Source: an uncultured Parachlamydiaceae bacterium
Lineage (GTDB): Bacteria > Chlamydiota > Chlamydiia > Chlamydiales > Parachlamydiaceae
Length of the DNA: 64,000 bases
Reading direction: 5' to 3'
Assembly: GCA_963780445.1 (NCBI GenBank)
Contig: CAWACC010000008.1
Location: forward strand, 12,523 to 76,522
The notes beneath the pieces are model-generated. The model saw only the letters and a program-made list of their open reading frames with translations, was not told where the DNA came from and searched no databases. Positions 11,248 to 13,593 of the stretch are shown here, one piece after another (positions within the stretch are counted from its first letter, which is position 1; each line of letters begins with the position of its first letter). Made by a program: the position numbers and the translations under genes.

Positions 11248-13593
11248 TTAAGTTTTAGGTTTAGCTTTGGCTTCAGTTTTGCCTTTAGCTGCTTCGGCCC
11301 CCATCTGCTTTTTCATCTCTTTAGCTTTAGAAGCCCTTCTTGGGCTATCTTTTGCTTCAGCCAGATTTATTAAAATATTACACTCAGTTTGTTTCAAATT
11401 CTTAGCATCTTGACTAGGTATAGTCACAGAATTAATTAATTCTGAAAAATTAGTATTTGGAGTTTTATTTTGCTCACTTAACGTTTTTATTTGTTCTCCA
11501 AACTCTGCATTTTTTAATATGCCATTTTGTTTTAGTAAAATACTAGCAATATCGGGATTAAAACATTTCTCATTCTTTCCAATGAGTTTTTTTGAACCTT
11601 CAAGAATTCCAGTTGAATCTGTAAATAATATTACTGCCAATGGAATAGTTTGTTTAGTTTCCATTGATTTCTTCCTCATGTTACTTTTATTACCACCAAG
11701 GACACCAGCTTTATCATTCAACACTGCGATTTCATTATTTATTTCTTTGTCCAACAATTTCCCTGATCTACTGTCCAATTGTTGTAATGATGCTAATATT
11801 GCATTAGCAGTCGTAAAGTCATTTTGTGAAAAGCTACTTTCTGCAACATCGATAAAAAATTTCACACGTTCTTGAAACTCGTTCTTATTTGTTGAAGAAA
11901 AAACTACATCCAATACACCCTCACTTAATTTTGTTGTACAATCTATAAGATTTGAACAATTAACATTTTTCCCTTTTTCTTTATTGTATAAAATTACATC
12001 GTGAAGTGTCACTTTTGAAAATTGATGTGCTAACATTAATCTACAGTTTGTACTCATATTGTTAACAGCAGTTTTCCATTCTTTTGATCCTATTTTTGCA
12101 TCAGGTATTATATCACTTAATTTAGGAACTTTTGCCTGTGGGCTTACAACCTGTGAACTTGCAACCTGTGGACTTGCAATTTGTACTGCTAATTCATATT
12201 TCATATTTGTTTTATTTGTTGTATTTTCATTTTTTACAAACTCGACAAATTTGTTATTTTGTAAAAATGTCAATTTTTTTGCTTCATCTGGAGATAACCC
12301 TGAATCAATCAATTTGTCTACAAATTCAGCACATTTAAGCATCGTAGCCTTGTCTTTATCCTGACTTGCTTCATTAAAAATATTATCAAGTACAGTAGAA
12401 AGATCCCCTGTTGTTAAATAAGCTCGATAGGTTATTGCAAAGTCACGAAAATCTATTTTTAATTCTTCACCATCTTCATCTTTTCCTAAGACATTTCCTG
12501 AGATAATATTCATTATGTTGTTTTTTTCAACTTGTAGCTGTGCTATCGTCTTAGGTGGTTCCTCTTTTTTTTCAGTTTTTTCTGCTTTTATACCACTCTT
12601 AGCCCCGGTAGGATCATTACTTGGAAGTGCAGAAGTCTGGGATTGTGCCGCTGTAGTTGTTATGGGTGCCGATTGCGTTAAAGAGGTTGATGTAGTTACA
12701 GGAGCTTCTACTGAAGGTCGTCTTGGCAATGGTTTTGGTTGGGGGGGGGTAGATGTTGGCGGTGGAGGCAGCGGCGGCAGACTTGCGGACATTGTCTGAC
12801 CCTGGAGTGAAGTTGTTGGCTGATTTGCTAAATGCATATATTGCTGAGGCAAAGGCTGGCCAGGAACTGGCCGTAATGGCGGACCATAAGGCAAAGTGGG
12901 CAGGCCTGGCAATGTAGGCATTTGTGGCTGATTTGCATAAGGAGGCGATGGAGGTGGTGGCCTGGAAGGTGGTGGCCTGGAAGGTGGTGGCCTGGAAGCT
13001 GGACTGGAAGGAAGACTGTAAGATGGCCCTCTTCCTCCAATTTCTCTAAGAGGGTTTTTTAGTGGAGGAGCAATATTTCTTGCTCCTATAGAAATACTTC
13101 TATTATGCTCTTTTTCTTTTAAAGCTACTTCAGGCCCCTCTAAATGATTGGCATTCATTTGACGATCTACTATTTGTGCGTCAGTTTGGTCGGCCGTTTC
13201 TGAGGCATGAGTAGATGTAACGGGTTTCGGTACTTCTTCAGGTTTTGATGCATCGGATTCCTTTTGAACTCGACGATGTATACCTAAATTCATAAGAGCC
13301 TTGCTTCCTATTTCTTTAAATTCTTCTGAGCTCAGCCTTTTACTCCTGCGAAGTTCTCGGCGTGGAGGTTGATTCTCAACAGTATCTTGAGCTGATTCTT
13401 TTAACAATTTTTCAGTTCCAAATTCATTTGTTTTTTCTTGAGTATTAAGTTCTTTCTCCGGCTTTTTAATTTCTGTTCCCTCAAATTGTCTTACCAGTTC
13501 TTTTACGCTTTCTTTCTTCACTGGAGTGTGTGCTTGGCCAACATCAGGTTGTTGTTGGTTAATATTAGGATCACTAAAACCGCCTATACTCAT
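11248..13593 (-). CDS. Eukaryotic-like Ras guanine-nucleotide exchange factor (RasGEF_N + RasGEF/Cdc25-homology) with a proline-rich N-terminal half; candidate effector
   Basis: 781 aa. REM-like segment FRDFAITYRAYLTTGDLSTVLDNIF. Cdc25-homology blocks: LAHQFSKVTLHDVIL; NLIDCTTKLSEGVLDVV...ERVKFFIDVAESSFSQNDFTTANAILASLQQLDS; TIPLAVILFTDSTGILEG. The N-terminal half holds PPPSRPPPSRPPPSRPPPPSPP and LPPLPPPPTSTPPQPKPLP tracts. AT-rich gene. Confidence 0.6.
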   Translation of the reverse strand: MSIGGFSDPNINQQQPDVGQAHTPVKKESVKELVRQFEGTEIKKPEKELNTQEKTNEFGTEKLLKESAQDTVENQPPRRELRRSKRLSSEEFKEIGSKALMNLGIHRRVQKESDASKPEEVPKPVTSTHASETADQTDAQIVDRQMNANHLEGPEVALKEKEHNRSISIGARNIAPPLKNPLREIGGRGPSYSLPSSPASRPPPSRPPPSRPPPPSPPYANQPQMPTLPGLPTLPYGPPLRPVPGQPLPQQYMHLANQPTTSLQGQTMSASLPPLPPPPTSTPPQPKPLPRRPSVEAPVTTSTSLTQSAPITTTAAQSQTSALPSNDPTGAKSGIKAEKTEKKEEPPKTIAQLQVEKNNIMNIISGNVLGKDEDGEELKIDFRDFAITYRAYLTTGDLSTVLDNIFNEASQDKDKATMLKCAEFVDKLIDSGLSPDEAKKLTFLQNNKFVEFVKNENTTNKTNMKYELAVQIASPQVASSQVVSPQAKVPKLSDIIPDAKIGSKEWKTAVNNMSTNCRLMLAHQFSKVTLHDVILYNKEKGKNVNCSNLIDCTTKLSEGVLDVVFSSTNKNEFQERVKFFIDVAESSFSQNDFTTANAILASLQQLDSRSGKLLDKEINNEIAVLNDKAGVLGGNKSNMRKKSMETKQTIPLAVILFTDSTGILEGSKKLIGKNEKCFNPDIASILLKQNGILKNAEFGEQIKTLSEQNKTPNTNFSELINSVTIPSQDAKNLKQTECNILINLAEAKDSPRRASKAKEMKKQMGAEAAKGKTEAKAKPKT
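12953..12997 (-). repeat. Perfect 3 x 15-bp in-frame tandem repeat (GGTGGTGGCCTGGAA) encoding (PPSRP)3
   Basis: Three identical 15-mers at 12953, 12968 and 12983, inside the proline-rich region of the RasGEF gene. Confidence 0.9.

What the first reader, a model, noticed from the sequence alone, without database searches (positions are those of the whole stretch)
11248..13593. Bacterial protein with a eukaryotic RasGEF_N + RasGEF (Cdc25-homology) module and proline-rich tracts
The C-terminal 400 aa follow the Cdc25-homology pattern block by block. First comes a REM-like FAITYRAYLTTGDL. Then LAHQFSKVTLHDVIL matches 'iAeQLTlld', and NLIDCTTKLSEGVLDVV matches 'rfNxlsxWV'. RVKFFIDVAESSFSQNDFTTANAILASL matches 'RaxxixkfIxvAxxcxxlxNfnslmAIxsaL', and TIPLAVILFTDSTGILEG matches 'ciPflGvyLtDLtfieeG'. 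As far as I know, RasGEF domains are essentially eukaryotic and rare in bacteria. A chlamydial copy next to the V-ATPase operon, fused to SH3/profilin-ligand-like polyproline tracts, would be a host small-GTPase-manipulating effector candidate. The gene is markedly AT-rich by eye, consistent with horizontal acquisition.
Basis: partly seen in the sequence, partly recalled or inferred. Interest (0 to 1): 0.72.

Follow-up and report, generated by a model that had tools for sequence, protein, structure and literature searches.

The report
Chlamydial protein with eukaryotic RasGEF domain
An environmental chlamydia encodes a very divergent copy of the eukaryotic domain that switches on Ras-type GTPases, joined to a proline-rich tail; it is probably an injected host-manipulating protein, a kind already recorded in Legionella and in another amoeba-infecting chlamydia.

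Summary
Window 11248-13593 (-) is an intact 781-aa ORF with a Shine-Dalgarno-like site. Residues 519-674 match Pfam RasGEF (PF00617) above the curated cutoff (38.9 vs 23.1 bits, E=1.1e-9). A profile of only this protein and its two closest relatives finds only Cdc25-homology domains among solved structures.

The upstream RasGEF_N (REM) claim is sub-threshold: 13.6 bits vs 28.3, and hhalign P=0.017, though both land on the REM core motif. Two AlphaFold models were too poor to confirm the fold.

The N-terminal ~345 aa are polar and probably disordered, with five RxxPxxP motifs. The gene has the lowest GC3 of the 45 ORFs compared in the window, and the other low-GC3 ORFs that match a Pfam family all carry F-box, ankyrin, LRR or kinase domains. 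The host is an environmental chlamydia. The gene is absent beside the conserved V-ATPase operon in 40 related genomes and has almost no sequence relatives.

It is not a new kind of thing. Legionella LegG2 is a translocated RasGEF-annotated effector, and Protochlamydia pc1363 is a RasGEF protein found in elementary bodies and predicted to be type III secreted.

Most likely it is a secreted effector that activates, or at least binds, a host Ras/Rap-family GTPase. That is inferred, not shown. Verdict: new member of a known kind, of moderate interest.

The parts
11248..13593 (-). Complete coding sequence, 781 aa plus stop
   Evidence: ORF list and translation. A 2.3-kb open frame in 37% GC DNA. 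Lowest GC3 (0.225) of the 45 ORFs compared in the window.
13600..13603 (-). Shine-Dalgarno-like GAGG, 6 nt upstream of the ATG
   Evidence: Read directly from the sequence.
13642..13670 (-). Sigma-70-like promoter candidate (TTTAAA-17-TATAAT) in the 145-bp AT-rich spacer after the MFS gene
   Evidence: Consensus scan, 10 of 12 matches. Promoter-like sites in this region are no more frequent than in shuffles (12 vs 9.4 +/- 3.1), so this is only a candidate.
12559..13593 (-). N-terminal ~345 aa: polar, probably disordered, no signal peptide or TM segment. Presumed to carry the secretion signal and docking motifs.
   Evidence: 66-80% disorder-promoting residues per 50 aa; maximum 19-residue Kyte-Doolittle hydropathy over the whole protein is 1.08; first 30 aa are hydrophilic. 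No Pfam domain.
12712..13014 (-). Proline-rich core (aa 194-294) with five class-I SH3-ligand consensus motifs (RxxPxxP at aa 201, 206, 211, 241, 287) and one LPPPP
   Evidence: Motif scan. The in-frame 15-bp x3.4 tandem array at 12952-13002 encodes (SRPPP)n.
12346..12450 (-). REM-like motif (aa 382-416, FRDFAITYRAYLTTGDLSTVLDNIF...), sub-threshold
   Evidence: Pfam RasGEF_N is the top family for the isolated region, but at 13.6 bits against a 28.3 cutoff, E=0.08. hhalign aligns it to SOS1 [22 protein letters not shown], P=0.017.
12135..12179 (-). In-frame 15-bp x3 tandem repeat encoding the SPQVA-type linker between the REM-like region and the RasGEF domain
   Evidence: Tandem Repeats Finder and the translation.
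11572..12039 (-). Cdc25-homology (RasGEF, PF00617) domain core, aa 519-674
   Evidence: Pfam 38.9 bits, cutoff 23.1, E=1.1e-9. A profile of this protein plus P0003/P0005 hits only Cdc25, RalGPS1 and Epac2 in the PDB. A profile that adds P0006/P0007 hits Cdc25 at 3e-16, then RalGPS1, Epac2, RasGRP and SOS1.
11593..11649 (-). Helical-hairpin motif TIPLAVILFTDSTGILEGS (aa 649-667), counterpart of SOS1 CVPFFGIYLTNILKTEEGN (926-944)
   Evidence: MAFFT alignment with a verified SOS1 sequence. Kept: P651=P928, T658=T935, D659=N936, E665=E942, G666=G943. T661 sits at the L938 position, as in yeast Cdc25.
11251..11358 (-). Lys/Ala-rich, low-complexity C-terminal tail (aa 746-781)
   Evidence: Composition K17 A12 for aa 701-781. 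Degenerate 6/24-bp repeats at 11232-11290.

Best explanation
The gene encodes a lineage-specific, eukaryotic-like effector candidate of an environmental chlamydia.

Shown: it has a real but highly divergent Cdc25-homology (RasGEF) domain at aa ~519-674, which probably extends to ~745. Upstream lies a long polar, proline-rich region with no signal peptide or membrane segment. The gene belongs to the window's low-GC3 class of eukaryotic-like-domain genes.

Inferred: the protein is exported into the host cytosol by the chlamydial type III system, through a signal in the disordered N-terminus. The RxxPxxP tract docks it onto SH3-domain or other polyproline-binding host proteins at the membrane or actin cortex. 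The Cdc25-homology domain, perhaps buttressed by a degenerate REM-like helix, inserts its helical hairpin into a host Ras/Rap-family GTPase and promotes GDP release. That would switch the GTPase on locally.

In amoebae, Ras/Rap activation drives macropinocytic and phagocytic cups. The most likely role is therefore in uptake or early vacuole establishment, by analogy with Protochlamydia pc1363, which is packed in elementary bodies and expressed at 2 h post infection.
For: Domain: Pfam RasGEF above the gathering score. A subfamily-only profile retrieves only Cdc25-homology structures, and the extended profile reaches Cdc25 at 3e-16. Nine of the ten best Foldseek matches are chains of Cdc25-homology domains, although the scores are weak. 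Both models are all-helical.

Hairpin: P, T, D, E and G of the SOS1 928-943 motif are kept.

REM-like motif: it sits at the expected distance upstream and is recovered by two methods, both below threshold.

Effector-like features: no signal peptide or TM segment, and a polar, probably disordered N-terminus. Lowest GC3 of 45 ORFs. The other low-GC3 ORFs that match a Pfam family carry F-box, Ank, LRR or Pkinase domains; three low-GC3 ORFs have no hit. The gene is absent from the syntenic position in 40 chlamydial genomes that keep the V-ATPase operon. It has its own RBS.

Precedents: the closest relative MAG carries two more RasGEF proteins with the same plan of a long Pro/Ser-rich N-terminus and a C-terminal RasGEF domain. 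pc1363 of P. amoebophila has a RasGEF domain, is EffectiveT3-positive, is in the EB proteome and is in the early I class, which the authors link to invasion. Legionella LegG2 is listed among Dot/Icm substrates.
Against: There is no experimental or computational test here of secretion or of exchange activity. The domain scores low for the family: 38.9 bits, against 89-136 bits for three other RasGEF proteins from bacterial contigs. Several positions that, from my knowledge of the SOS-Ras complex, contact Ras are changed: Y912->K636, R826->D551, G931->V654, N944->S667. The PROSITE-type signature, as I recall it, is met at only 4 of 8 fixed positions. The fold is not confirmed: pLDDT 45.7 and 49.5, best Foldseek E=0.02, TM 0.31-0.41. 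REM is below every threshold. The SH3-ligand motifs are short consensus matches in a 27%-Pro segment and could be chance.
Confidence: 0.55

Rival explanations
1. Pseudo-GEF. The protein is a secreted effector with a Cdc25-homology fold that has lost catalysis. It acts by binding or sequestering a host GTPase, or purely as a scaffold through its proline-rich region.
For: Low family score. Substitutions at conserved Ras-contact positions, notably the aromatic Y912 -> K636 and R826 -> D551. The sister proteins P0003/P0008 deviate even further in the hairpin. Extreme sequence divergence, with only six weak hits among 1.84 billion representatives.
Against: The hairpin residues T658, D659, E665 and G666 and the structural blocks are kept. 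Yeast Cdc25, an active GEF, also has T at the L938 position and H at E942. The alignment is uncertain outside the core blocks.
Confidence: 0.22
2. Decaying or neutral cargo. The gene is a horizontally acquired RasGEF gene drifting under relaxed selection with AT bias and repeat slippage. It is still open but has no current function.
For: An orphan with no ortholog in any collection searched. Lowest GC3 in the window. In-frame tandem repeat expansions. The related P0005 copy looks truncated among many small ORFs.
Against: A 781-codon frame stays open in 30-37% GC DNA, where stop codons arise easily. A Shine-Dalgarno-like site is retained. The domain blocks are still recognisable above the Pfam cutoff.
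Confidence: 0.12
3. Intrabacterial regulator. The domain acts on a bacterial Ras-like GTPase inside the chlamydial cell.
For: Nothing specific. Secretion was simply not tested here.
Against: None of the window ORFs scanned against Pfam is a small GTPase. The gene clusters by composition with F-box, ankyrin, LRR and kinase genes, whose partners are eukaryotic. The chlamydial precedent pc1363 is predicted to be secreted.
Confidence: 0.04
4. Artefact. This is a chance ORF, or a eukaryotic (host amoeba) fragment mis-assembled into a bacterial contig.
For: The domain is typical of eukaryotes, and the composition differs from the neighbouring genes.
Against: The gene is contiguous with a chlamydial V-ATPase operon, an MFS transporter and a complete bacterial rRNA operon carrying Chlamydiales signature sequences. 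It has no introns and has a bacterial RBS. The same protein is held by NCBI and ENA on a 262,815-bp contig. Related RasGEF genes sit in other bacterial contigs.
Confidence: 0.02

Closest known systems
Eukaryotic Cdc25-homology RasGEFs (yeast Cdc25, SOS1, RasGRF1, RasGRP, RalGPS1, Epac2)
   Same: Pfam PF00617 match covering profile positions 8-171 of 181. The same order of conserved blocks and a recognisable hairpin motif. These are the only structures retrieved by the family profiles. SOS1 also pairs the domain with proline-rich SH3-ligand sequences (my knowledge; its PKPLPRFP segment is visible).
   Different: No single-sequence phmmer match at E<=10 to any solved RasGEF, with 10-16% identity in the Foldseek alignments. 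No DH/PH, C1, EF-hand, cNMP or RA modules. REM only sub-threshold. Several Ras-contact positions substituted. Encoded by a bacterium.
Legionella pneumophila LegG2 (lpg0276)
   Same: A protein of an amoeba-infecting bacterium annotated 'Ras guanine nucleotide exchange' and listed among Dot/Icm substrates (PMC2824747). PathFams describes a Legionella effector family with PF00617 (PMC8442362).
   Different: A different phylum and a different secretion system (type IVB versus, presumably, type III). The sequence relationship could not be tested because no LegG2 sequence was available here. I found no published exchange assay for it in the library.
Protochlamydia amoebophila pc1363
   Same: A chlamydial protein with a Pfam RasGEF domain. 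It is EffectiveT3-positive, detected in elementary bodies and in the 'early I' expression class (Data Set S1 of PMC5451489). It is the direct precedent for a chlamydial RasGEF effector candidate.
   Different: Recorded only as a table row and never characterised. The window organism is a different lineage (window GC 43%; best AtpA match 84%, to an uncultured MAG).
Uncultured-chlamydia subfamily P0003/P0009, P0008, P0005, and the 815-aa protein of MAG GCA_964390695.1
   Same: The closest sequence relatives, at 22-28% identity depending on method. Same plan: a Pro-rich N-terminus, a helical region with an 'LYLSxEEW'-type motif, then a weak RasGEF domain. P0009 lies in the MAG whose AtpA is most similar to the window's.
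   Different: A different genomic locus, next to G6PD/OpcA rather than the V-ATPase. Hairpin residues differ. Too divergent to call orthologs.
Other bacterial GEF-mimic effectors (Legionella RalF Sec7 Arf-GEF; Salmonella SopE Rho-GEF)
   Same: The same strategy: an injected protein that activates a host small GTPase. RalF is cited in PMC8442362; SopE is from my knowledge.
   Different: Different folds and different GTPase families.

Membership tests
RasGEF / Cdc25-homology domain (Pfam PF00617) | Sequence match to the family HMM above the curated gathering score | tested here: met
   38.9 bits against a 23.1 cutoff, E=1.1e-9, aa 519-674, profile positions 8-171 of 181.
RasGEF / Cdc25-homology domain (Pfam PF00617) | Reciprocal specificity: a profile of the protein and its nearest relatives retrieves Cdc25-homology domains and nothing else | tested here: met
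   Profile A3 (window protein + P0003 + P0005) against PDB sequences gives four distinct sequences, all RasGEFs: Cdc25 E=0.0033, RalGPS1 0.15, Epac2 0.77. Only the first is individually significant. Profile A2, with two canonical bacterial members added, gives Cdc25 at 3e-16 and 28 RasGEF sequences among its 29 hits.
RasGEF / Cdc25-homology domain (Pfam PF00617) | All-helical Cdc25-type fold with a protruding helical hairpin | tested here: inconclusive
   AlphaFold2 models are all-helical but low in confidence (pLDDT 45.7 and 49.5, pTM 0.30 and 0.43). Foldseek's top matches are Cdc25-homology domains, but with E>=0.02 and TM 0.31-0.41.
RasGEF / Cdc25-homology domain (Pfam PF00617) | Hairpin signature (PROSITE-type pattern [GAP]-[CT]-V-P-[FYWH]-x4-[LIVMFY]-x-[DN]-[LIVM], recalled from memory) and the catalytic hairpin residues equivalent to SOS1 T935, L938 and E942 | tested here: inconclusive
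   QTIPLAVILFTDS meets 4 of the 8 fixed pattern positions (T, P, F, D), so the strict pattern is not met. T658, D659, E665 and G666 align with SOS1 T935, N936, E942 and G943. T661 aligns with L938, as in yeast Cdc25.
RasGEF / Cdc25-homology domain (Pfam PF00617) | Nucleotide-exchange activity on a Ras-family GTPase | not testable with these tools
   Needs a biochemical assay.
RasGEF_N / REM domain (Pfam PF00618) | Sequence match to the family HMM above the curated gathering score, located N-terminal to the Cdc25-homology domain | tested here: not met
   No hit when the full protein is scanned at E<=10. With aa 346-495 scanned alone it is the top family, but at 13.6 bits against a 28.3 cutoff, E=0.082, aa 382-416. 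hhalign places the region on the SOS1 REM core with P=0.017 and probability 2.7%. The subfamily profile finds no REM in the PDB. The motif and its position are suggestive, but membership is not demonstrated.
Chlamydial type III secreted effector | No Sec signal peptide or membrane segment; polar, disordered N-terminus | tested here: met
   Maximum 19-residue hydropathy 1.08; first 30 aa average -0.78; 66-80% disorder-promoting residues over aa 1-350. This is necessary but not sufficient.
Chlamydial type III secreted effector | Type III-dependent translocation into host cells | not testable with these tools
   No secretion predictor or assay was available. The precedent pc1363 is EffectiveT3-positive.
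Eukaryotic-like accessory gene class of environmental chlamydiae | Eukaryote-type domain, atypical composition, lineage-restricted distribution | tested here: met
   GC3 0.225 against a mean of 0.445. The compositional class is shared with F-box, Ank, LRR and Pkinase ORFs. Absent from 40 syntenic chlamydial loci.
Ortholog of P. amoebophila pc1363 or Legionella LegG2 | Full-length sequence similarity or reciprocal best hit | not tested

The most novel reading that the evidence does not exclude
The protein could be a bacterial functional mimic of the Grb2-SOS axis. A type III-injected Cdc25-homology GEF would bring its own SH3-ligand tract, dock onto host adaptor or cortical proteins at the entry site, and locally activate amoebal Ras/Rap to trigger a macropinocytic or phagocytic cup. 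That would make Ras-family activation a chlamydial invasion mechanism. As far as I could find, it would also be the first bacterial Cdc25-type GEF with demonstrated activity.
Probability: 0.15. Interest if true: 0.65.

Novelty: new member of a known kind. Interest (0 to 1): 0.35.

Why it matters
Intracellular bacteria that live in amoebae collect eukaryotic signalling domains, and small-GTPase switches are among their favourite targets. Arf, Rab and Rho GEF mimics have been characterised (my knowledge), but I found no exchange assay for any bacterial Cdc25-type Ras/Rap GEF in the library searched. They exist only as annotations (LegG2, pc1363).

This gene adds an unusually divergent chlamydial example with a proline-rich docking region. 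It also shows that related uncultured chlamydiae carry several fast-evolving paralogs. If one of these proteins were shown to activate host Ras or Rap, it would link chlamydial entry or vacuole biogenesis in protists to the Ras-driven macropinocytosis and phagocytosis machinery.

As it stands, the finding is a sound annotation and a reasonable candidate for experiment, not a new principle.

Tried and rejected
Searches that led nowhere:
- A word-indexed homolog search with the full protein returned only the protein itself; the polyproline words probably swamped the candidate list.
- The same search with alignment A2 returned nothing.
- An exact-sequence contig look-up of the window protein failed twice.
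- The cluster look-up gave no accession or name.
- Two metagenome scans, one with the window protein and one with the P0003 subfamily, found nothing.
- NCBIfam gave no hit.
- Single-sequence phmmer against PDB sequences found no RasGEF: polyproline noise with the full length, nothing with the C-terminal 436 aa.
- Rfam found nothing at the locus.
- No second RasGEF paralog exists in the window.

Structure:
- Two AlphaFold2 runs on 4- and 6-sequence alignments gave unusable confidence.
- The Foldseek result therefore counts only as weak corroboration.

Considered and rejected:
- Eukaryotic contamination or mis-assembly, because of contiguity with the rRNA and V-ATPase operons.
- A chance ORF, because of its length in AT-rich DNA and its RBS.
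- A TarP-like actin nucleator; a simple L[KR][KRH][VTA] pattern scan found no WH2-type motif.
- Orthology with the 815-aa RasGEF of the nearest MAG; BLASTP finds only a 34-residue match, E=0.03.
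Full report
**1. The observation**

The window holds an ATG-to-stop ORF of 781 codons at exactly 11248-13593 on the minus strand. The gene has a GAGG Shine-Dalgarno-like site 6 nt before the ATG. It also has a -35/-10-like pair in the 145-bp AT-rich spacer that separates it from the upstream MFS transporter gene. Promoter-like matches in this region are no more frequent than in shuffled sequence. 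The protein has no hydrophobic signal peptide and no membrane segment.

**2. The RasGEF domain is real**

- Pfam RasGEF (PF00617) matches aa 519-674 at 38.9 bits (curated cutoff 23.1, E=1.1e-9). The match covers profile positions 8-171 of 181 and is the only Pfam family found in the full protein at E<=10.
- The protein alone is too divergent for single-sequence phmmer to reach any solved RasGEF at E<=10.
- A profile built only from this protein and its two nearest relatives (P0003, P0005) retrieves four distinct PDB sequences, all Cdc25-homology domains: Cdc25 E=0.0033, RalGPS1 0.15, Epac2 0.77.
- Adding two more canonical RasGEF proteins from bacterial contigs (P0006, P0007) raises this to Cdc25 at 3e-16, followed by RalGPS1, Epac2, RasGRP1/2/4, RasGRF1, SOS1/2 and a RalGDS-like protein.

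**3. Hairpin residues**

I aligned the protein with an SOS1 sequence that I recalled and then verified as 100% identical to PDB chains. The numbering is anchored by L938 and E942. The hairpin motif TIPLAVILFTDSTGILEGS (aa 649-667) is the counterpart of SOS1 CVPFFGIYLTNILKTEEGN.

| Window residue | SOS1 residue | Status |
|---|---|---|
| P651 | P928 | kept |
| L652 | F929 | conservative change |
| T658 | T935 | kept |
| D659 | N936 | D, as in Cdc25 |
| T661 | L938 | T, as in yeast Cdc25 |
| E665 | E942 | kept |
| G666 | G943 | kept |
| K636 | Y912 | changed |
| D551 | R826 | changed |
| V654 | G931 | changed |
| S667 | N944 | changed |

The residue roles come from my knowledge of the SOS-Ras complex. 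The four changed positions mean catalytic competence cannot be assumed.

**4. The fold is not confirmed**

The first had mean pLDDT 45.7 and pTM 0.30. The second had 49.5 and 0.43, with only aa ~550-630 reaching 60-83. Both models are all-helical. Nine of the ten best Foldseek matches for the second model are chains of Cdc25-homology domains (Cdc25, RalGPS1, RasGRP4, a Ral-GEF entry, RasGRP2), and SOS1, RasGRF1 and Epac2 follow. However, E is 0.02 or worse, TM is 0.31-0.41 and rmsd exceeds 10 Å. I count this as weak corroboration only.

**5. The REM (RasGEF_N) claim is not established**

- The full-protein Pfam scan gives no RasGEF_N hit.
- When aa 346-495 are scanned alone, RasGEF_N is the top family. 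It lies over aa 382-416, about 130 residues upstream of the catalytic domain, as in canonical GEFs. The score is only 13.6 bits against a cutoff of 28.3 (E=0.082).
- hhalign of a five-sequence alignment of this region against the 467-residue SOS1 REM+Cdc25 construct places its single best match on the REM core. Window FRDFAITYRAYLTTGDLSTVLDNIF aligns with SOS1 [25 protein letters not shown], but with P=0.017 and probability 2.7%.
- The same profile finds no REM domain in the PDB.

Two weak results agree with each other and with the expected position. A degenerate REM-like element is therefore plausible (my estimate about 0.6), but membership is not shown.

**6. The N-terminal half**

- Residues 1-345 are 66-80% disorder-promoting residues and have no Pfam domain.
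- Residues 181-345 are 27% proline.
- There are five RxxPxxP matches (aa 201, 206, 211, 241, 287), one LPPPP, and no PxxPx[RK], PPxY or simple WH2-type match.
- The (SRPPP)n tract is encoded by an in-frame 15-bp x3.4 tandem array. The SPQVA-type linker before the RasGEF domain is encoded by another 15-bp x3 array. The low-complexity parts therefore seem to grow by slippage.

**7. Organism and genomic context**

- Downstream on the same strand lies a V-type ATPase operon: atpE, DUF2764, atpA, atpB, atpD and atpI.
- AtpA is 84% identical to that of an uncultured MAG (GCA_964390695.1) and 75-79% identical to Parachlamydiaceae and other Chlamydiales MAGs.
- The window also holds a complete rRNA operon. 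Its 16S gene contains exact matches to the Chlamydiales signature primers 16SIGF and 16SIGR as I recall them.
- Citrate synthase, PrpD, isocitrate dehydrogenase and other housekeeping genes are present too.
- All 40 chlamydial loci fetched keep the V-ATPase genes in the same order, though a few short or divergent loci lack one or two of them. None has a relative of this gene or of the flanking MFS, TPR or kinase genes.

**8. Composition**

The gene's GC3 is 0.225, the lowest of the 45 ORFs compared in the window (mean 0.445, sd 0.104). The window's ORFs fall into two classes. Housekeeping genes have GC3 of about 0.45-0.62. A low-GC3 class (0.22-0.37) contains four F-box ORFs, one of which also has LRRs, three ankyrin ORFs, a protein kinase and this RasGEF, plus three ORFs with no Pfam hit.

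The AT-richness is therefore real and marks the accessory, eukaryotic-like gene class. It fits horizontal acquisition or fast evolution under AT bias but does not tell them apart. No donor can be named: none of the six hits among 1.84 billion representatives was a recognisable eukaryotic RasGEF.

**9. Relatives**

The protein is nearly an orphan.
- The exhaustive HMMER search with aa 346-781 gave six hits at E<=1e-3. Four of them are RasGEF proteins.
- P0003/P0009, P0008 and P0005 are 22-28% identical to it, depending on method. They share the plan of a proline-rich N-terminus followed by a helical region and a weak RasGEF domain.
- P0009 lies in the very MAG whose AtpA is closest to the window's. 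It sits next to G6PD/OpcA genes, and an 815-aa protein with a stronger RasGEF domain (89 bits) and a Pro/Ser-rich N-terminus lies 6 kb away.
- P0007 carries two RasGEF domains and sits in a bacterial contig beside ankyrin, RhoGEF and RhoGAP genes.
- P0006 sits in a bacterial contig beside AstB.

RasGEF domains therefore recur in bacteria that carry eukaryotic-like genes, and they evolve fast.

**10. What is already known**

- Legionella pneumophila LegG2 (lpg0276) is listed among Dot/Icm substrates as 'Ras guanine nucleotide exchange' (PMC2824747).
- PathFams lists RasGEF among eukaryotic-like domains enriched in pathogens and mentions a Legionella effector family with PF00617 (PMC8442362).
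- Data Set S1 of PMC5451489 lists Protochlamydia amoebophila pc1363 with a Pfam RasGEF domain. It is EffectiveT3-positive, present in the elementary-body proteome, and in the 'early I' class, which the authors associate with host invasion.
- I found no exchange assay for any of these proteins.

A chlamydial RasGEF-domain effector candidate is therefore a new member of a known, but uncharacterised, kind.

**11. Mechanism proposed**

Shown: the domain content, the composition, the absence of export or membrane signals, and the lineage restriction.

Inferred:
- type III secretion through the disordered N-terminus;
- docking through the proline-rich tract;
- hairpin-mediated GDP release from a host Ras/Rap-family GTPase;
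- a role in uptake or early vacuole establishment in a protist host.

I put 0.9 on 'contains a true Cdc25-homology domain', about 0.65 on 'secreted effector', and about 0.45-0.5 on 'active GEF'. The main rival is a non-catalytic GTPase binder or scaffold.

**12. Verdict**

RasGEF: yes. RasGEF_N: unproven. Effector role: plausible. Rarity: overstated. Novelty: new member of a known kind. Interest 0.35.

Noticed in passing
window 1641-3095(+), 25542-26462(+), 26700-27593(+), 34606-35379(-), 39360-41222(+), 45784-46449(-), 46552-47229(-), 56391-57104(-): The window's low-GC3 ORFs (0.24-0.37) that match a Pfam family all carry eukaryotic-like domains. They are a protein kinase, two tandem F-box paralogs, an F-box-like ORF, a weak F-box/LRR ORF and three ankyrin ORFs, two of them tandem paralogs. 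Housekeeping genes have GC3 of 0.45-0.62. Composition alone therefore picks out effector candidates in this genome.
   Followed up: partly
window 27706-28404(-), 47336-48172(-), 48251-49711(+): Three more low-GC3 ORFs (0.30, 0.30, 0.36) have no Pfam match and lie next to the F-box and ankyrin genes. They may be further orphan effector candidates.
   Followed up: no
window 10036-10421, repeat at 10057-10152: The spacer between atpE and the DUF2764 gene is 386 bp here but only about 3-50 bp in the related chlamydial loci where both genes were found. It contains a 33-bp unit repeated 2.9 times (96% matches) with an internal CCCCGGCAGGGG palindrome, plus shorter repeats. This looks like an insertion inside a conserved operon. 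No Rfam family matches it.
   Followed up: partly
window 15861-18482(-): An 873-aa protein has weak C-terminal TPR matches and a Ser/Pro/Lys/Asn-rich low-complexity middle. It has no match in the 40 related chlamydial loci, so it may be another lineage-specific host-interaction protein two genes from the RasGEF gene.
   Followed up: no
window 28679-34163(-): A complete rRNA operon (16S, tRNA-Ala, tRNA-Ile, 23S, 5S) lies between low-GC3 accessory ORFs: 27706-28404, which has no Pfam match, and the F-box-like ORF 34606-35379. The 16S gene has GCTGCGGTAATAC in the region that most bacteria, as I recall, write GCCGCGGTAATAC, and it matches the Chlamydiales signature primers exactly.
   Followed up: partly
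L056:1603-4050(-) and L056:10001-11893(+) (MAG GCA_964390695.1, contig CAYMKI010000021.1): The MAG closest to the window organism carries two very different RasGEF-domain proteins 6 kb apart. They are 815 aa (Pfam 89 bits) and 630 aa (38 bits), separated by a 977-aa protein with no Pfam match and a PDZ/S41 peptidase. This suggests a small, fast-diverging RasGEF family in this chlamydial lineage.
   Followed up: partly
L057:10001-20012: An unidentified bacterial contig groups a 1434-aa protein with two RasGEF domains and proline-rich repeats together with ankyrin, RhoGEF and two RhoGAP genes. It is a dense cluster of small-GTPase regulators in a bacterium.
   Followed up: no
L051:6000-9500: The P0005 copy (350 aa) looks truncated and sits among many 30-90-aa called genes on a contig otherwise syntenic with L056 (G6PD, OpcA, PheS). 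The cause could be frameshift-rich long-read assembly or a decaying gene copy.
   Followed up: no
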